Shown here one piece after another: positions 4,351 through 57,267 of a DNA stretch of 64,000 nucleotides. Numbering within the stretch: the first letter of the stretch is position 1; each line of letters opens with the position of its first letter. This stretch comes from Candidatus Campbellbacteria bacterium (GTDB taxonomy: Bacteria; Patescibacteriota; Minisyncoccia; Phycocordibacterales; GCA-2747955), in the NCBI GenBank assembly GCA_947311625.1, contig CAMZKW010000002.1, positions 19,013 through 83,012 of the forward strand. The letters run 5' to 3'. The notes below the pieces were generated by a model. It did no database searches. It saw only the letters and a list, made by a program, of their open reading frames with translations, and was not told the DNA's origin. A program made the position numbers and the translations under genes.

Positions 4351-4402
4351 AGAAATTTTGCCCCCTGTCTGCATGTGACGCACAGGCAGGAGCAAAATTT
4401 CT
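4351..4402. repeat. Family-1 hairpin whose loop is replaced by a ~30-nt GC-rich imperfect palindrome
   Basis: Outer stem AGAAATTTTGC / GCAAAATTTCT. The insert CCTGTCTGCATGTGACGCACAGGCAGG shares ACAGGCAGG and CCTGTC with the hairpin beside the RAYT gene (13631-13647). Confidence 0.6.
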
Positions 4403-11653: not shown

Positions 11654-11740
11654 GAAAAATTTTATGCTGAGTGAGGAGAGAAAGTGAAATGTATAAATAT
11701 ACTTTGAACTTTCTCGACAAAACTCAGCTTAAAATTTTTC
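11654..11740. terminator. Long (87 nt) AT-rich compound hairpin 3' of lepA
   Basis: Outer stem GAAAAATTTTATGCTGAGT / ACTCAGCTTAAAATTTTTC (19 bp, 1 mismatch). Inner stem GAGAAAGT / ACTTTCTC. T runs lie on both sides. Confidence 0.5.
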
Positions 11741-11755: not shown

Positions 11756-13555
11756 TTAATCATTTTTCATCATTTTAAGAAATACATCCTGTCCGATATC
11801 AACCTTACCCATCCCTTTCATCTTCTTTTTTCCTTTCTTTTGTTTTTCCAAAAGTTTTTTCTTCCTTGTAATATCTCCCCCGTAAAGTTTTCCCGTTACA
11901 TCCTTTCTATATGCCTTAACAGTTTTTGAAGATAAAATTCTACCAGAGACTTTTGCTTGAACTTTCATAACAAAGTTTTGTCTCGGTAAAACTGAATGAA
12001 GTTTTTCTACAGCTTTTTCCGCTTCTTCTTGCATTCTAACTGATGAAACAATTTTTGCAAAAGCTACAACTATTTCATCTGCTACTAAAATATCCATTCT
12101 TGTGACATCAGCCTTTCTGTAACCATCGGGTTCATAGGATAAAGAGGCATAGCCAGAAGTTTCTGATTTTAATTCATCAAAAAATCCTCTCATCAATTCT
12201 CTCAAAGGAACCTCTGCAATAATTTCAACTCTACCATCACCAAAATCTAAATTTGAAATCACTTGACCTTCGTGTCTATAAAATAATTGTGAAATTGTAC
12301 CAGAATAATCTCCCGGAGAAATTATTTTAGCCTTTACCCAAGGTTCCTCCACCACAGAAACATCTCCATGGTCTGGAAACAATGATGGATTATAAATTAT
12401 TTGTTCTTCCCCAGATTTTAATTTAATTTTATAAACAATGGTGGGCTGAGTAATTATTAAATTCATATCGTGCTCCCTTCTTAACCTTTCGGTGATAATT
12501 TCTAAATGAAGCATTCCTAAAAAACCACATCTATAGCCGCGACCAAGAGAACCAGAAGTTTCTTCTTCAAATGTTAAAGATGAGTCAGATAATTTTAATC
12601 TTAAAAGAGCCTGTCTTAAATTATCAAATTCATCTTGAGATTCTGGATAAAGAGAAGCTCAAACAACTGGTTTTGGTTTTTCGTATCCTTCCGTTGATTC
12701 CACTGGATTTTTAAAAGAAGTAATAATATCACCCACGGAAGCAATTCCTGGTTTTTTAATACCAGTTACTATATATCCAATTTCACCGGGACCTAATTTA
12801 TTAACTTCTTTTTCAAATGGGGTAAAAATACCAACTTCTCCAGATTTAAATTTTTGATTAGCAACTTTAAATAAAAGTTCTTCATTTTTTTTCACTTCTC
12901 CAGAAAAAATTCTAACAAAAACTATAATACCTTTATTATCATGGTAGGAAAAATCAAAAATCAAGGAATCTAATTTATCATCATTTTTTATTTCTGGTGC
13001 TGGGACTGACTTTATTATTTCACTAATTAAATCAGGGATACCTTCTCCAGTTTTTCCAGAAGTCTCAATTATATCTTCCATTTCTACATCAAGTAAAATT
13101 GCAATTTCTTCTTTTACTTCATCAACTCTTGCTATTGGAGAATCAACTTTTGACAAAGCTGGGATAATTTTTAATCCAGCTTTTTTTGCCATATCTAATG
13201 TTGTTAAAGTTTGAGCCTGAACCCCTTGAGTTGCATCCACCAAAAGAACTGCTCCTTCAACTGCTTTCATGGCTCTCGAAACTTCGTAGGAAAAATCAAT
13301 GTGCCCTGGAGTATCGATTAAATTTAAAATATAATCTTCACCATTTTCTTTATGCTCCATCCTTACTGGTTGCATTTTTATGGTTATACCTCTCTCCTGT
13401 TCCAATTCCATTGTATCTAAAACTTGGTCATGCATTTTTCTTTTTTCAACGGTATTTGTAGCGTCCAACATTCTATCGGATAAAGTAGATTTTCCGTGAT
13501 CAATATGGGCAATTATAGAAAAGTTTCTAATATTTTTAATATTCATATTTTTCAT
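11756..13555 (-). CDS. lepA: Elongation factor 4 (LepA)
   Basis: N-terminus IRNFSIIAHIDHGKSTLSDR, then DTPGHIDF and the C-terminal LepA domain (GYRCGFLGMLHLEII...GKLYGGDITRKKKLLEKQKKGKKKMK). Pieces 12659-13555 and 11756-12514 are in one frame, joined through TGA 12661-12659. Confidence 0.95.
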
Positions 13556-13622: not shown

Positions 13623-13687
13623 AATTTTCAACAGGCAGGGCCTGTCCTTTTTTAATAAAAAAGGACAGGTCCTGCCTGTTGAAAATT
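13623..13687. repeat. 65-nt near-perfect hairpin (31-bp stem) abutting the RAYT stop codon
   Basis: AATTTTCAAC-AGGCAGGGCCT-GTCCTTTTTT / AAAAAAGGAC-AGGTCCTGCCT-GTTGAAAATT, with one G-T wobble and a 3-nt loop. Each arm also contains its own small palindrome (ACAGG..CCTGT). Confidence 0.85.
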
Positions 13688-14357
13688 ACCTTTCTAATTC
13701 GTTAAATTTTAAGTTATTGAAATCTTGATTATGTTTTTCAGAAAAATATTTTGATTTATTTTTTAAAAATTCTTTATACTCTTTAATCCCACCAATAGTA
13801 TCTAAGATATATTTAATTTCTTTTTGAGAGCAAATTTTATCCCCTTCTTCTTCTCCTAAAAATTCAAATAAAGATGTTTTTACTAAATCTTTTTTTATAT
13901 CATGATTATGATGTTTATAATTTAGATTTATATAAGCGGAAACAATTTCTCTACCCAATTCTCCATCAATATCTTTCGATTTAAATCTTCCTTGAAATAA
14001 AACACCGCTTCTTTCATATTTTTTATTAAAATATTTTGTATAAGAATTTGATATTTTAGACATAAATTTAGAAATACCATTTTCAACCTTCTGTTTTAGA
14101 ATAAAATGAAAATGATTTGGGAGTAAAGAGTAAGCAATAATTTCAACAAGTTTTTCATTATCTTTTTTATTTTCTTTTAAGATTCTTCTTTTTTTATTTC
14201 TTTCATTTGAATTCAAAGCCTCAACGGAATTAGCAATTTGAATTGCATCAAAAAAATAATACAAATCCCCCTTATCTTGAAAAATTATTCTTTTATCTAC
14301 ACCTCGATTATAAATGTGATAATATTTATTACTATAAAATTCTCTTTTTGTTGCCAT
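13686..14357 (-). CDS. IS200/IS605-like Y1 (HUH) transposase of the REP-associated (RAYT) type
   Basis: 223-aa intact ORF. YHIYNRGVDKRIIF, HUH motif LLPNHFHFILKQ and GVLFQGRFKSKDI are typical of COG1943/Y1_Tnp proteins. It is a single gene with no tnpB and is bracketed by hairpins at 13623-13687 and 14384-14448. Confidence 0.75.
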   Translation of the reverse strand: MATKREFYSNKYYHIYNRGVDKRIIFQDKGDLYYFFDAIQIANSVEALNSNERNKKRRILKENKKDNEKLVEIIAYSLLPNHFHFILKQKVENGISKFMSKISNSYTKYFNKKYERSGVLFQGRFKSKDIDGELGREIVSAYINLNYKHHNHDIKKDLVKTSLFEFLGEEEGDKICSQKEIKYILDTIGGIKEYKEFLKNKSKYFSEKHNQDFNNLKFNELER

Positions 14358-14383
14358 AGAAAAATCTTATCATATTTTTTCTA

Positions 14384-14448
14384 AATTTTCAACACCTTGA
14401 AGGTGTCCTTTTTATTTTAAAAAGGACACCTTCAAGGTGTTGAAAATT
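14384..14448. repeat. 65-nt perfect hairpin (30-bp stem) upstream of the RAYT gene, overlapping the stop codon of the tail-fibre-like gene
   Basis: AATTTTCAAC-ACCTTGAAGGT-GTCCTTTTT / AAAAAGGAC-ACCTTCAAGGT-GTTGAAAATT. The outer and inner stem segments match those of 13623-13687, while the 11-nt core is different and is compensated on both arms. Confidence 0.85.
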
Positions 14449-16336
14449 ATTTTTCTAATTTTTCTAATCTTCTTTCTAAATCGTTTAACCTTTTTTCCTG
14501 TTCCTTAATCTTTTTATCTTGTTCTTGTAAAAGATTTATCATTGGCACTGCTAATTTTGGATAATCAACAGCTAAAATTCCTTTATCATCTTTCTTTACA
14601 AATTCTGGGAAATATTTTTGAACTTCTTGGGCAATAATACCCACATCAGCTTTTCCATCTTTCTTTCAATTAAATCTTACAGCATTGATTTTTAAAATAT
14701 CTCTGTAATTTTCTAATTTTTTAATATTTTTCTTTAATCTTCTATCTGAATTATATACAAAAGAATCTGCTTTTACATTTCCATTAACTTGTAATTTTTC
14801 TCCTGGTGAAGTTGTTCCAATTCCGACATTATTAGACATATAAACATTTCCACCTGTAATATCTAATCTTGAAGCATTGTCTAAATGCAAATCAACTGTT
14901 GAAGAACCATTACCATAACCTAAATAAAAACCTCTCTTTCCATCATCCCTTCTTCCTTCAAAAATTCCATAATGATTATTGACTGTTGATTGAGCAGTAT
15001 GTCAATACCCGTCACCATTTATCATAGTTCTTCCATCAACTTGAAAACCACCATCTGCTCTTAGCATTTTATTTATATAAACATCCTTATTTCCAAAAGA
15101 TCTAATTCAAGTATTATCAGACATATTTCATCCACCACCATGATCTTGGAAATATAATCCATTACTCCCTTTTGTTCTAATTCATCCTGTGCTTTGGATA
15201 TCACCTATAACATCAAGTTTTTGAGATGGTGAAGTTGTTCCGATTCCGACATTACCACTAAAATAACTTTTATCAGAATAAATATTTAAATAAGTTAAAT
15301 TACCACCACCATAATTATATAAATTTAAATTACCCTTTCCTCCATTGGGGTGACCCGCACCTATAAATGTTCTCCCATCTGAATATTGAAAAAATGCACT
15401 GGCACTTCAATCAGAACTTGGGTTATCACTAAAAATATATTGTCCTTTTATATCTCCTGATACATCCAACTTCGCTGTTGGTGAAGTTGTTCCAATTCCA
15501 ACTTTACCATCTGTATAAACTGCATCAGCGGTACTTGTTCCATCAACAAATTTTCCACCTTTAAATAAAGAACCATTTTTGTATAGATCCCCTGAGAAAC
15601 TTATATTTCCATTTACATCCAACTTCGCTGTTGGTGAAGTTGTTCCGATTCCAACGTTACCATCTATATAAACTGCATCAGCGATATTTGTTCCATCGAC
15701 GAATTTACCTCCAAAATCAAGAAGAACCCCTGATTTATATAAATCTCCTGAGAAATTAATATCCCCTAAAACATCTAATTTTTTAGTTGGTGAAGTTGTT
15801 CCGATTCCCACTCTCTTTGTCCCCATATCAATAGTCATATTAAAATCATAACCATTAGCTAACCTATCTTTATCATAACCAAAGAAACCAAAATCATCAC
15901 CAAGACCACCAAGGTTAATAACATGTCCACTTGATGTTTTTTGCCTAATTAATGAATGATATCCACTAGTTGTTAACTGCGTTGACGATGTTATACCACC
16001 TGTTCCAGTTTTACCAGCAATTCACATACTTCCTGGAGCTGTAACTTTTAAATTACCATTAACATCCAATTTCGCTGATGGTGAAGTTGTTCCAATTCCA
16101 ACTTTAGAAGAACCAGAAGCATTACCTTGAAGTAGAATATCTGTTCCCACAAGTAAATTCTTCACACCGATACTACCATCTTTTGTTTGGGTTGATGTAG
16201 ATGTGTTTATGGGCGCTGAAACATTATTATTTGGAGCTGTCCCCGTAGGACCAACTCAGTTTTCGGCCATAGTTATACCTGCAAAAGTTGCCAAAACTGA
16301 AACCAAGATTATACTTATTATATTTTTTGTATTCAT
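14447..16336 (-). CDS. Secreted tail-fibre-like protein (629 aa) with repeated VGIGTTSPxxKLDV motifs and a C-terminal peptidase-S74-type intramolecular chaperone domain
   Basis: ATG at 16336 and a signal-like N-terminus (IISIILVSVLATFAGITMA). There are six copies of (V/R)GIGTTSP(S/T/G)xKL(D/Q)V. The C-terminus NSDRRLKKNIKKLENYRDILKINAVRFN[TGA]KKDGKADVGIIAQEVQKYFPEFV...AVDYPKLAVPMINLLQEQ plus a coiled coil matches the endosialidase/tail-fibre chaperone domain. I translated 15409-14888 by hand: only TGA interruptions. Confidence 0.8.
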
Positions 16337-16457
16337 ATTATTTTTGTTAGTTGCGAAGTTAAAAATAGGGAGCGAATGCGACCATATTTTTTTGAGCAAC
16401 GGATTATTTTTAATAACTTTATTTTAGCAAAAAAAGAAAAAAAAGAAAAGGGAAAAA

Positions 16458-56394: not shown

Positions 56395-57267
56395 TTAAAA
56401 ATTTTTATAAATTTTTCCTAAAGATTCTTTTATCAATCCTTTAATTTCTAGAATTGAAATTTCTATTCCAAAAGTTCCTACATCTAAACCGCTTTCTTCT
56501 AGAAGTTCATTTTTTGTTTTTGGTTCTCCAAGTTTTTTTAAAATAATTTTTTGATTTTCCGATAAATCATCAAAATTTAATTTTTCCTGTTTTACTTCTC
56601 CCGTTAAATTTAAAATTTCTAAGATATCTTTACCAGAAAAAATTGGAATAGCACCTTCTTTCAAAAGTTTATTTGAACCAGCAGAATATTCTGAAAAAAT
56701 TGAATTGGGAATAACTGCTAAATCTTTGTTGTAATCTAGGGCTAAACGAGCAGTAATTAAAGTTCCAGATTTTTCCTGAGCTTCCACCACTAAAACCAAA
56801 TCAGCTATTCCGGCCATGAGTCTATTTCTTTGAGGAAAGAAGTAGGGCATTGTTTTGGCTGAATTTTCAAATTCTGAAACTAAAATCCCATCGTTTTCTA
56901 AAATATTTTTAGCTAAATTAAAATTTGATTTAGGGTATAAAACTTCTGGATTTAAACCGGAACCTGGAAAAGCGATGGTTTTTAAATTATTTTCCATGGC
57001 TTTTTCATGAGCCAATGTATCAATTCCCAAAGCTAAACCGGAAATAATAACAATAGGTTGGCCTGAAATTTCTTTAAAAATTTTTTCTAATGCATTTTTT
57101 GAATAGGAGGAGTGTCTTCTGGAACCAACAACGACAATAAATTTAAAATCATTTTTATTAAAAAGTTTTCCATTAAAATTTATTTTTTTTGGTAAGTCAG
57201 GTATTTCCAAAAGTGGTTCAAAAATAGTGTTTTTAAATTCTTCTTTTTTGATTTCTTGAATTTCCAT
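56395..57267 (-). CDS. dprA: DNA processing protein DprA
   Basis: Family blocks are VVGSRRHSSY, ISGLALGIDTLAHEKA and AQEKSGTLITARLALDYNKDLAVIPN. TGATATAAT (57282-57274) lies 6 nt upstream of the ATG. Confidence 0.88.
   Translation of the reverse strand: MEIQEIKKEEFKNTIFEPLLEIPDLPKKINFNGKLFNKNDFKFIVVVGSRRHSSYSKNALEKIFKEISGQPIVIISGLALGIDTLAHEKAMENNLKTIAFPGSGLNPEVLYPKSNFNLAKNILENDGILVSEFENSAKTMPYFFPQRNRLMAGIADLVLVVEAQEKSGTLITARLALDYNKDLAVIPNSIFSEYSAGSNKLLKEGAIPIFSGKDILEILNLTGEVKQEKLNFDDLSENQKIILKKLGEPKTKNELLEESGLDVGTFGIEISILEIKGLIKESLGKIYKNF

What the first reader, a model, noticed from the sequence alone, without database searches (positions are those of the whole stretch)
13623..14448. RAYT-type Y1 transposase bracketed by two 65-nt hairpins with identical stems but different, compensated cores
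The single-gene HUH/Y1 transposase (13686-14357) is flanked by two long perfect or near-perfect hairpins. Both read AATTTTCAAC-[11-nt core]-GTCCTTTTT on one arm and the complement on the other. The core is AGGCAGGGCCT in the left copy and ACCTTGAAGGT in the right copy, and in each copy both arms carry the matching change. Structure is therefore conserved while the core sequence is free. That is what one expects of DNA hairpins recognised by a Y1 transposase on single-stranded DNA, as in REP/RAYT or IS200 ends. Each hairpin also overlaps the TAA stop of a gene (the RAYT gene itself and the tail-fibre-like gene), so they probably double as terminators. The motif ACAGGCAGG/CCTGTC from the left core reappears inside an otherwise standard terminator hairpin at 4351-4402, which hints at dispersal.
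Basis: partly seen in the sequence, partly recalled or inferred. Interest (0 to 1): 0.6.

Follow-up and report, generated by a model that had tools for sequence, protein, structure and literature searches.

The report
RAYT-like gene between nested hairpin doublets
A single-copy gene for a hairpin-cutting (HUH/Y1, RAYT-like) enzyme in a tiny-genome Patescibacteria bacterium sits between two 65-base DNA palindromes, each an inverted pair of small hairpins, and this gene-plus-own-hairpin layout, known from other bacteria, recurs in over 100 related gene loci from other Patescibacteria.

Summary
Two 65-nt palindromes (13623-13687, 14384-14448) bracket a 223-aa Y1/HUH gene (13686-14357, minus strand). 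They share invariant outer and inner segments and differ in an 11-nt core that changes on both arms.

New points:
- Each core is itself a small palindrome, so each 65-mer is an inverted doublet of a 15-nt hairpin plus T-run, like a REPIN.
- The left-type core AGGCARGRCCT is a hairpin tip shared by Y1-flanking hairpins of at least 9 other Patescibacteria loci, so it is not free sequence.
- Left-type copies occur at 3-4 further intergenic sites in this 624-kb genome. The right-type is unique.
- The right hairpin is orthologous in two relatives at 82-83% protein identity. Their frame is identical and their cores differ.

Across relatives, 23/38 and 57/78 homologous genes share an exact word of 12 nt or more between their two flanks, against 0/30 and 0/32 controls. 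Paralogs are diverged, and each has its own small dispersed hairpin family.

The best fold match is E. coli TnpA-REP. The sequence motifs fit TnpA-Y1 subclass 2.1 (TIRYT).

Verdict: a REPtron/TIRtron-type module, a new variant of a known kind. The half-hairpins also look like terminators and supply the -35 of the gene's promoter. This scan has noted the same layout in many other Patescibacteria genomes.

The parts
13623..13687 (.). Left 65-nt palindrome ('L-type'): an inverted doublet of the unit CAAC-ACAGGC-ARG-GCCTGT-CCTTTTTT. Its last 2 nt are the AA of the Y1 gene's TAA stop. It lies 67 nt upstream of the lepA start.
   Evidence: -34.6 kcal/mol, z -12.6. L-type half-sites also occur on C8, C10, C11 and C15. 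The tip AGGCARGRCCT is shared with hairpins of other family members.
13631..13654 (+). Small hairpin ACAGGC-AGG-GCCTGT followed by CCTTTTTTA. It is terminator-like for plus-strand transcripts.
   Evidence: terminator scan: 6 sites found, 0.2 expected. (-5.3 kcal/mol on its own).
13656..13679 (-). Mirror small hairpin ACAGG-CAGGA-CCTGT followed by CCTTTTTTAT. It is terminator-like for minus-strand transcripts leaving the Y1 gene.
13686..14357 (-). Y1/HUH endonuclease gene, 223 aa, RAYT-like. HUH = H82/H84 (PNHFHFIL), LFQGRFK motif, catalytic Tyr142 (SAYINLNY). It contains no TGA codon and no in-frame hairpin copy.
   Evidence: (dN/dS 0.14-0.28).
14364..14392 (-). Promoter-like site TTGAAA-17-TAAGAT with TG. 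The -35 is the foot of the right palindrome, and the -10 ends 6 nt before the ATG (leaderless-type spacing).
   Evidence: The same arrangement is seen in L055, L142 and L145 and in about half of 18 other loci.
14384..14448 (.). Right 65-nt palindrome ('R-type'): an inverted doublet of CAAC-ACACCT-TGA-AGGTGT-CCTTTTT. Its last 2 nt are the AA of the tail-fibre-like gene's TAA stop. It has no other copy in the genome. It is orthologous to the hairpins in L055 and L056.
14392..14414 (+). Small hairpin ACACCT-TGA-AGGTGT plus CCTTTTTATT (terminator-like, plus strand).
14418..14440 (-). Mirror small hairpin plus CCTTTTTAAA. It is terminator-like for minus-strand transcripts leaving the tail-fibre-like gene.
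14447..16399 (-). Context: upstream neighbour, a tail-fibre-like gene with a C-terminal coiled coil. The same neighbour precedes the hairpin and the Y1 gene in L055 and L056.
11756..13555 (-). Context: downstream neighbour lepA, with one in-frame TGA.

Best explanation
This is a REPtron/TIRtron-type module. A vertically kept, single-copy Y1/HUH single-strand DNA endonuclease (RAYT-like, TnpA-Y1 subclass 2.1-like) sits together with its cognate DNA hairpins.

The recognition unit is the small 15-nt hairpin AC-NNNN-loop-NNNN-GT, framed by CAAC and GTCC. In this lineage two such units face each other across a T/A-rich spacer. They form a 65-nt perfect palindrome, a REPIN-like doublet.

By analogy with E. 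coli TnpA-REP and IS608 TnpA, the enzyme would bind the hairpin when it is extruded on single-stranded DNA and cut and rejoin next to the conserved foot. That would occasionally copy the doublet to other intergenic sites, 3-4 of which exist here.

The doublets have also been put to use by the host or the gene. Each half is a small hairpin plus T-run, a terminator facing each direction. The foot of the upstream doublet is the -35 of the enzyme's own, probably leaderless, promoter.

Shown:
- the anatomy;
- the enzyme's family, fold and intact catalytic residues;
- family-wide linkage of each gene to its own hairpin;
- dispersed solo copies;
- purifying selection and conserved position.

Inferred:
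- binding and cleavage of these hairpins by this protein;
- mobilisation of the hairpins;
- terminator and promoter activity.
For: Enzyme:
- Pfam Y1_Tnp scores 40.9 bits.
- The best NCBIfam match is the REP-associated tyrosine transposase model.
- H82, H84, Y142 and LFQG are invariant in 53 homologs.
- The AlphaFold model has pLDDT 94. Its best PDB match is 4er8, TnpA-REP bound to a REP hairpin (E 3.4e-5), ahead of ISDra2 and IS608.
- The motifs NHFH / FQ / YxNLN match subclass 2.1 in Table 1 of PMC6006769.

Linkage:
- Homologs are present in 40 of 61 genomes searched (G000 and 60 relatives), with 1-13 matches per genome.
- 23/38 loci (control 0/30) and 57/78 named Patescibacteria loci (control 0/32) share an exact word of 12 nt or more, mostly palindromic, between the two gene-proximal flanks.
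- The sequences differ between paralogs.

Not an insertion sequence:
- There is one copy in this genome.
- Paralogs within other genomes are at most 55-79% identical.
- The neighbour is the same in L055 and L056, and dN/dS is 0.14-0.28.

Dispersal:
- L-type half-sites occur on C8, C10, C11 and C15.
- Relatives have 11, 4, 11 and 14 loci for four cognate hairpins, with 0 hits for the reversed controls.

Nested structure:
- Long hairpin: 98.1% of cells paired, and 11 of 26 pairs changed on both sides.
- Small hairpins: 97.2% paired, and 8 of 12 pairs changed on both sides.
- Shifted controls give 20.8-58.1%.

The L-type tip recurs in at least 9 other Y1 loci on different lower stems.

Terminator-like sites: 6 found against 0.2 expected. 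A promoter-like site overlaps the hairpin foot.
Against:
- The family in this genome is tiny: 5-6 loci including the two gene-flanking copies, and one of them (C8) is degenerate.
- The R-type has no solo copy.
- The closest relative (L055) has no downstream hairpin within 77 nt, so 'bracketing' is not constant in this sub-clade.
- The protein scores below the curated RAYT cut-off (32.9 versus 80 bits), the P of the Y---NP motif is replaced by Y, and there is no GTAG foot.
- The conservation pattern (free, compensated stem plus invariant T-run) is also what selection on a terminator alone would give.
- Empty-site comparisons failed because gene order is not conserved in the genus.
Confidence: 0.7

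Rival explanations
1. Transcriptional punctuation only. The 65-mers are face-to-face intrinsic terminators plus a promoter -35 that insulate the tail-fibre-like gene, the Y1 gene and lepA. Their palindromy is kept by template-switch homogenisation, and the enzyme does not act on them.
For: - Small hairpin plus T-run sites occur on both strands of both palindromes, 6 against 0.2 expected.
- Both overlap stop codons.
- The invariant parts are the T-run and the stem base, and the variable part is the compensated stem top.
- The hairpin foot serves as a -35 with a conserved TGnTAnnAT -10.
Against: - Hairpins flanking homologs in other families have no T-run, yet they are just as tightly linked to the gene.
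- The genome's ordinary terminators are a different type: GC stems with GAAG/TTCG loops.
- The C8 and C15 copies lie upstream of genes, not at 3' ends.
- The second arm of R would terminate only antisense transcription.
- The L-type tip is conserved across distant family members, which a terminator stem need not be.
Confidence: 0.12
2. The enzyme is a domesticated hairpin-binding or hairpin-nicking protein with a host role, such as autoregulation at its own promoter or processing of hairpins at replication forks. The solo copies are static binding sites rather than products of mobilisation.
For: - The gene is single-copy, under purifying selection and kept in the same position.
- The upstream hairpin overlaps the promoter in many loci.
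- Copy numbers are very low compared with classical REPs.
- RAYTs are generally argued to be co-opted genes (PMC5581495, PMC8266576).
Against: - Ten of 11 copies in G007 and 9 of 11 in G052 are letter-perfect at scattered sites. That is easier to explain by recent copying than by independent conservation.
- The hairpin sequence is species-specific even within the genus, implying turnover.
- The catalytic HUH and Tyr are invariant.
Confidence: 0.13
3. An autonomous IS200-type insertion sequence whose left and right ends are the two hairpins.
For: - The hairpin-gene-hairpin unit is about 826 bp, close to IS200 in size.
- The IS200/IS605 transposases are the next-best structural matches.
- In many relatives the two flank hairpins are in direct orientation, as IS608 ends are.
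Against: - There is one copy in the genome, and no near-identical paralogs occur in any relative examined.
- The genomic position is the same in three lineages separated by dS 0.26-0.48.
- The IS200 model scores 14.6 bits against a cut-off of 55.
- The Y motif is Y---N-, not Y---Q.
- The two 'ends' have different histories, and L055 lacks one of them.
Confidence: 0.05

Closest known systems
TIRYT / TIRtron (Di Nocera et al. 2013, PMC3733652), equivalent to TnpA-Y1 subclass 2.1 (Quentin et al. 2018, PMC6006769) and RAYT Group 1 (Bertels et al. 2017, PMC5581495)
   Same: - Protein motifs NH[YF]H, FQ and Y[IV]xLN, and a length of about 220-240 aa.
- Low copy number with diverged paralogs.
- The gene is flanked by inverted repeats that can be wholly self-complementary ('double palindromic TIRs') and that form only moderately abundant families.
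   Different: - Quentin et al. found no REP-like hairpins for subclass 2.1. Here, and across Patescibacteria, the flanks are short perfect palindromes that are also dispersed.
- The GGGGWSAS TIR consensus is absent.
- The P of the Y motif is replaced by Y.
- No C-terminal HTH family was detected by Pfam.
REPtron: RAYT/TnpA-REP with cognate REPs (E. coli YafM, PDB 4er8; the Stenotrophomonas and Marinomonas perfect-palindrome group, PMC8266576)
   Same: - It is the best structural match.
- Each gene has its own cognate palindrome.
- Perfect-palindrome REPs of about 23 nt with a 1-3 nt loop resemble those of the Stenotrophomonas group.
- Solo copies are intergenic.
- The gene behaves like a housekeeping gene.
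   Different: - There is no GT[AG]G foot; the foot is CAAC here and ACTTRG in many relatives.
- Copy numbers are 4-14, not more than 100.
- The NCBIfam RAYT cut-off is not reached.
- The flanking copies are often in direct rather than inverted orientation.
REPIN (Bertels and Rainey 2011, PMC3116915)
   Same: Two inverted REP units separated by a short spacer fold into one long hairpin. The doublet, not the singlet, is the repeated unit in this genome.
   Different: - The population here is only about 4-5 doublets.
- The arms are perfectly matched.
- The spacer is a T/A run that makes each half terminator-like.
IS200/IS605 TnpA with subterminal hairpins (IS608, ISDra2, IS200)
   Same: The HUH/Y1 fold, a coding sequence bordered by palindromes, and probably a single-strand DNA hairpin substrate.
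   Different: It is not multi-copy, it has no Y---Q motif, it scores below the IS200 model cut-off, it is 223 aa rather than about 150 aa, and its position is inherited vertically.

Membership tests
HUH/Y1 endonuclease superfamily (Pfam PF01797 Y1_Tnp) | Pfam score above the gathering threshold | tested here: met
   40.9 bits against a cut-off of 23, E 2.7e-10.
HUH/Y1 endonuclease superfamily (Pfam PF01797 Y1_Tnp) | HUH metal-binding motif and a single catalytic Tyr | tested here: met
   H82 and H84 (PNHFHFIL) and Y142 are invariant in 53 homologs.
HUH/Y1 endonuclease superfamily (Pfam PF01797 Y1_Tnp) | TnpA-type fold | tested here: met
   The model has pLDDT 94. The Foldseek top hits are 4er8, 2xma, 2a6m and 2vjv, each with probability 1.00.
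IS200/IS605 TnpA (subclass 1.1) | Curated model NF033573 cut-off | tested here: not met
   14.6 bits against a cut-off of 55.
IS200/IS605 TnpA (subclass 1.1) | Y---Q catalytic motif | tested here: not met
   The motif here is YINLNY. The definition comes from Table 1 of PMC6006769.
IS200/IS605 TnpA (subclass 1.1) | Several near-identical copies per genome | tested here: not met
   There is one copy in G000. Paralogs in relatives are at most 55-79% identical.
Canonical RAYT / TnpA-REP (NCBIfam NF047646; REPtron) | Curated equivalog cut-off | tested here: not met
   32.9 bits against a cut-off of 80.
Canonical RAYT / TnpA-REP (NCBIfam NF047646; REPtron) | Gene flanked by its cognate palindromes | tested here: met
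Canonical RAYT / TnpA-REP (NCBIfam NF047646; REPtron) | 5' GT[AG]G tetranucleotide at the hairpin foot | tested here: not met
   The foot is CAAC here and ACTTRG in many relatives.
Canonical RAYT / TnpA-REP (NCBIfam NF047646; REPtron) | Cognate palindrome dispersed at high copy number (>100) | tested here: not met
   There are 5-6 loci in G000 and 4-14 loci in relatives.
Canonical RAYT / TnpA-REP (NCBIfam NF047646; REPtron) | Y---NP motif | tested here: inconclusive
   The Y142 and N146 positions fit, but the P is replaced by Y147. The consensus in this clade is YVNLNY.
Canonical RAYT / TnpA-REP (NCBIfam NF047646; REPtron) | Specific cleavage of the single-stranded cognate hairpin | not testable with these tools
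   This needs purified protein and oligonucleotide assays.
TnpA-Y1 subclass 2.1 / TIRYT-TIRtron | Key motifs NH[YF]H, FQ and Y[IV]xLNP, with a length of about 238 aa | tested here: met
   NHFH, LFQG and YINLN(Y), at 223 aa, compared against Table 1. This is a motif-level comparison only. No subclass HMM was available.
TnpA-Y1 subclass 2.1 / TIRYT-TIRtron | C-terminal HTH-like domain (Bac_DnaA_C / HTH_23 / HTH_28) | tested here: inconclusive
   Pfam finds nothing at E <= 0.1. The model shows a helical C-terminal part at residues 163-222, which was not compared separately.
TnpA-Y1 subclass 2.1 / TIRYT-TIRtron | Gene flanked by terminal inverted repeats, some self-complementary | tested here: met
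   The definition is given.
REPIN | Two inverted REP units with a spacer, folding into one long hairpin | tested here: met
REPIN | A replicating population of tens to hundreds of copies | tested here: not met
Intrinsic (Rho-independent) terminator | GC-containing stem-loop followed directly by a T-run | tested here: met
   Six sites found against 0.2 expected. This is a consensus match only. Termination itself was not tested.

The most novel reading that the evidence does not exclude
The 11-nt palindromic core is a swappable 'address'. The enzyme cuts at the invariant CAAC and GTCC junctions and exchanges or re-templates the hairpin tip. This would explain why the orthologous hairpin keeps a letter-perfect frame in three lineages while its core differs at 6-9 of 11 positions, more than synonymous sites do, with all four half-stems changing together. 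In the tiny genomes of Patescibacteria these enzyme-maintained doublets would also serve as combined terminator-promoter punctuation.
Probability: 0.1. Interest if true: 0.75.

Novelty: new variant of a known kind. Interest (0 to 1): 0.5.

Why it matters
REP/RAYT systems are known mainly from Proteobacteria and a few other phyla, as high-copy repeats served by a domesticated transposase. The subclass closest to this protein (2.1/TIRYT) was reported to have no REP-like hairpins.

Here, and in more than 100 related loci, ultra-small Patescibacteria genomes keep up to about 13 diverged RAYT-like genes. Each has its own perfect palindrome and a small dispersed family of that palindrome.

This extends the REPtron idea to a large uncultured radiation. 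It also offers very compact enzyme-hairpin pairs (223 aa; hairpin units of 15-23 nt), with natural specificity variants, for studying how HUH enzymes read hairpins.

This window adds a clear case of nested symmetry with a conserved frame and a fast-changing core. It also adds an apparent second use of the hairpins as terminators and as the gene's own promoter.

The kind of system itself is already known, and no activity has been shown.

Tried and rejected
- Dispersal hint at 4351-4402: only the 9-mer is shared, about 0.4 copies are expected by chance, and the hairpin there is different. Rejected.
- The 87-nt hairpin downstream of lepA (11654-11740): no CAAC/GTCC frame. Unrelated.
- Empty-site test upstream of lepA in five same-genus genomes: no shared neighbours.
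- Empty-site test for the C10 solo copy, upstream of alaS: no synteny in the genus.
- The same hairpin sequence in genus relatives: none within 3 mismatches.
- PDB sequence searches with the protein and with a 53-sequence profile: nothing meaningful, only RNase A noise. The fold search was needed.
- Joining C11 and C15 as one locus: the identical hairpin at both contig ends suggested it. However, atpA on C11 is not followed by the expected neighbour on C15, so I leave it open. The palindromic tail of C11 is an assembly fold-back.
- In-frame hairpin copy inside the gene, as seen in relatives: none in G000.
- Literature search for RAYT or tyrosine transposase in Patescibacteria, Parcubacteria or CPR: nothing relevant in the held library.
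Full report
**Setting**

- The window is contig C2:19013-83012 of a 624-kb, 22-contig genome with about 27% GC.
- Relatives found through the protein are Patescibacteria (Nomura-, Moran-, Giovannoni-, Saccharibacteria and similar MAGs).
- TGA is a sense codon. It aligns with Trp in relatives at 7 of 10 positions.
- The gene in question contains no TGA.

**Observation**

The two palindromes are exactly as described.
- Left: arms 13623-13654 and 13656-13687, 32 nt, with one G/A difference.
- Right: arms 14384-14414 and 14418-14448, 31 nt, perfect.
- Both read AATTTTCAAC-[11 nt]-GTCCTTTTT. The cores are AGGCAGGGCCT and ACCTTGAAGGT, mirrored on the second arm.
- As single-stranded DNA they fold at -34.6 and -34.5 kcal/mol, 12-14 standard deviations below shuffles.
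- They bracket a 223-aa ORF (13686-14357, minus strand) and overlap two TAA stops by 2 nt each.

- Each core, with its flanking AC and GT, is itself a small palindrome: ACAGGC-AGG-GCCTGT and ACACCT-TGA-AGGTGT.
- Each small palindrome is followed by CCTTTTT(T).
- The terminator scan picks out exactly these four half-sites, on both strands. It finds 6 sites where 0.2 are expected.
- Each 65-mer is therefore an inverted doublet of a 15-nt hairpin plus T-run, which is the architecture of a REPIN.

I aligned six copies: G000 L, R, C10 and C11, plus the orthologous hairpins of two relatives. Both levels of pairing are kept through double changes.

| Structure | Cells paired | Pairs changed on both sides | Slid controls |
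|---|---|---|---|
| Long hairpin | 98.1% | 11 of 26 | 40.4-58.1% |
| Small hairpins | 97.2% | 8 of 12 | 20.8-45.8% |

All variation lies in the 11-nt core. The outer TCAAC/GTTGA and the inner GT/AC plus T/A-run are invariant; the CC/GG pairs between them break only in the second arm of C10 and L055.

**The protein**

- It matches Pfam Y1_Tnp (40.9 bits).
- Its best NCBIfam match is the REP-associated tyrosine transposase model, but at 32.9 bits it is well below the 80-bit cut-off. The IS200 model scores 14.6 against a cut-off of 55.
- In 53 homologs the HUH histidines (H82, H84), LFQG and Tyr142 are invariant.
- The AlphaFold model is confident (pLDDT 94).
- Its best PDB match is 4er8, E. coli TnpA-REP bound to a REP hairpin (E 3.4e-5). 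ISDra2 and IS608 transposases follow.
- The motifs NHFH, FQ and YxNLN, and the length, match TnpA-Y1 subclass 2.1 in Table 1 of Quentin et al. 2018. That subclass corresponds to Bertels' Group 1 and to the TIRYT proteins of Di Nocera et al. 2013.

**The hairpins belong to the gene: family-wide evidence**

- Homologs occur in 40 of 61 genomes searched in the order (G000 included), with 1-13 matches per genome.
- In 45 loci from these genomes, nearly every gene has a palindrome within about 60 nt of its start and about 25 nt of its stop.
- These palindromes are near-identical within a locus and different between loci, including between paralogs of one genome.

The exact-word test gives the same result in two independent samples.

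| Sample | Loci sharing an exact word of 12 nt or more between flanks | Displaced control |
|---|---|---|
| Relatives in the order | 23 of 38 | 0 of 30 |
| Named Patescibacteria MAGs | 57 of 78 (37 clearly palindromic) | 0 of 32 |

- About a third of the hairpins have the foot ACTTRG...CYAAGT.
- In this genus the foot is CAAC...GTTG.
- Several loci, like this one, pair the same foot with different tops at the two flanks: L003, L013, L014 and L057.

**Not an active insertion sequence**

- G000 has one copy.
- Paralogs within other genomes are at most 55-79% identical. Subclass 1.1 (IS200) copies are about 99% identical within a genome.
- The two closest relatives are L055 (an ENA contig, 82%) and L056 (a JGI contig, 83%). 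They have the same upstream neighbour, the tail-fibre-like gene's C-terminus, followed by hairpin and then gene.
- dN/dS is 0.14-0.28 at dS 0.26-0.48.

**Dispersal**

In G000, L-type half-sites (CAACAGGCARGRCCTGTYC) occur at these places:
- the left palindrome;
- C10:12789-12856, a full doublet;
- C8:11138-11186, with one arm degenerate;
- the ends of C11 and C15, where the perfect palindrome evidently broke the assembly.

Other points:
- All are intergenic, and not all lie at 3' ends.
- The R-type is unique.
- None of these sequences occurs in five same-genus genomes.

In relatives, four cognate hairpins were counted.

| Genome | Loci | Letter-perfect |
|---|---|---|
| G007 (complete) | 11 | 10 |
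| G007 (complete) | 4 | 1 |
| G052 | 11 | 9 |
| G052 | 14 | 7 |

The reversed-pattern controls gave no hits. These are small REP-like families.

**The cores are not simply 'free'**

- The L-type core AGGCA(A/G)G(G/A)CCT is the tip of Y1-flanking hairpins in at least 9 other loci from diverse Patescibacteria. Examples are ACTTGG-AGGCAAGACCT-CCAAGT, CCCT-AGGCAAGGCCT-AGGG and GTTCG-AGGCAAGGCCT-CGAAC.
- The same G/A variants appear there on different lower stems.
- So the small hairpin is a family-typical recognition hairpin.

The R position behaves differently. The orthologous hairpin keeps a letter-perfect frame in G000, L055 and L056, but the cores differ at 6-9 of 11 positions:
- G000: ACCTTGAAGGT
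- L055: GGCCCGGGTCC
- L056: ACCCCTGGGGT

Synonymous sites differ at only 22-35%. The numbers are small and the positions are not independent. Still, the core appears to turn over faster than neutral sequence while the frame is frozen.

More distant clade members show the same nested design with yet other cores:
- L145: TTTTCCAAC-ATCCCAGGGAT-...
- L026: CCAAC-AAGTCCGACTT-...
- L142 has the L055 core.

In L055, L145 and L026 only the upstream doublet is present. The downstream L-type doublet of G000 was therefore either gained here or lost there.

**Secondary functions (inferred)**

- Each half-unit matches the terminator consensus.
- On the minus strand the foot GTTGAAAA supplies TTGAAA. Seventeen nucleotides later comes TG-n-TAAGAT, which ends 6 nt before the ATG.
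- The same TGnTAnnAT element, 6 nt before the ATG, is present in L055, L142, L143 and L145.
- The same -10-to-ATG spacing of 5-7 nt occurs in about half of 18 other loci. This suggests a leaderless transcript whose promoter overlaps the hairpin.
- By my reading of the sequence, lepA has a similar spacing. Leaderless spacing may therefore be general in this organism.

**Mechanism**

By homology with TnpA-REP and IS608 TnpA, the enzyme most likely binds the small hairpin on single-stranded DNA. It would then cleave and rejoin beside the conserved foot.

For perfect-palindrome REPs, cleavage depends on the foot motif, on one loop base and on an uninterrupted stem. Stem sequence matters less (PMC8266576). 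That agrees with the pattern 'conserved foot and tip class, compensated stem' seen here.

No step of binding, cleavage or mobilisation is shown for this protein.

**Comparison and novelty**

- The closest known categories are TIRtron/TIRYT (subclass 2.1) and REPtrons with perfect palindromes. The doublets are REPIN-like.
- Differences: no GTAG or GGGGWSAS motif, very low copy number, nested perfect symmetry with a T/A spacer, promoter and terminator overlap, and occurrence throughout Patescibacteria.
- Quentin et al. reported no REP-like sequences for subclass 2.1.
- I found no paper describing RAYT-like systems in Patescibacteria in the held library.
- This scan has already noted the same gene-plus-hairpin layout in many other Patescibacteria genomes. 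Those notes agree with my reading but are not independent evidence.

**Limits**

- Empty-site comparisons failed for lack of synteny.
- The subclass assignment rests on motifs, not on the authors' HMMs.

Noticed in passing
G000 contigs C1:62570-62633, C14:12051-12100, C4:1655-1704, C6:13470-13517, C6:31622-31663, C6:35803-35846 (outside the window); L004:1335-1393: A second palindrome family has the opposite design: a conserved AT-rich top, ATAAATTGCTATAGCAATTTAT, on locus-specific, compensated outer stems. There are six loci in G000 and no associated Y1 gene. A similar AAAATTGC-TAT-GCAATTTT-topped 59-nt palindrome lies 118 nt upstream of the Y1 gene in same-genus genome G003.
   Followed up: no
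G007:C1 solo hairpins at 56937, 156799, 614592 (L046, L048, L052); G000 C10:12784-12861: Several solo hairpin copies sit exactly at the centre of a local, locus-specific palindrome: AGCCCTCC|..|GGAGGGCT, GATCCCCC|..|GGGGGATC, and GCAAG|..|CTTGC in G000 C10. It looks as if they were inserted into the loop of an existing terminator hairpin.
   Followed up: partly
G007:C1:284301-284323 and 324435-324457; L008:1434-1464; L013:1660-1692: In several relatives a further copy of the cognate hairpin lies inside the Y1 reading frame. The G000 gene has none.
   Followed up: partly
window 11756-13555 (lepA) and G000 C10:12904-14715 (alaS): In-frame TGA codons align with Trp at 7 of 10 positions in relatives that lack TGA there (the others are F, Y and G). 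The recoding therefore looks like TGA=Trp (table 4-like) rather than TGA=Gly (table 25).
   Followed up: partly
G001:C71:8103-8902 (L022): The lepA gene of a same-genus genome is interrupted after about residue 70 by roughly 800 bp. This could be an intron, an intein or an insertion; it was not examined.
   Followed up: no
G000 contig ends C11:28896-29005, C15:26427-26468, also the C1 end, C20 end and C22 start: Contigs end inside perfect palindromes, and the last 26 nt of C11 are a fold-back of its own sequence. Assembly breaks at such hairpins, so hairpin copy numbers in this and similar MAGs are probably underestimated.
   Followed up: partly
L058 (OZ244962.1), L059, L060: In the named genome collection, the closest homologs (46-51% identity) are labelled Gammaproteobacteria or Candidatus Thioglobus MAGs. 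One is a 1.5-Mb chromosome, and its flanks carry the AGGCAAGGCCT-tipped hairpins. This is either a mislabelled or misbinned record or a case of transfer outside Patescibacteria.
   Followed up: no
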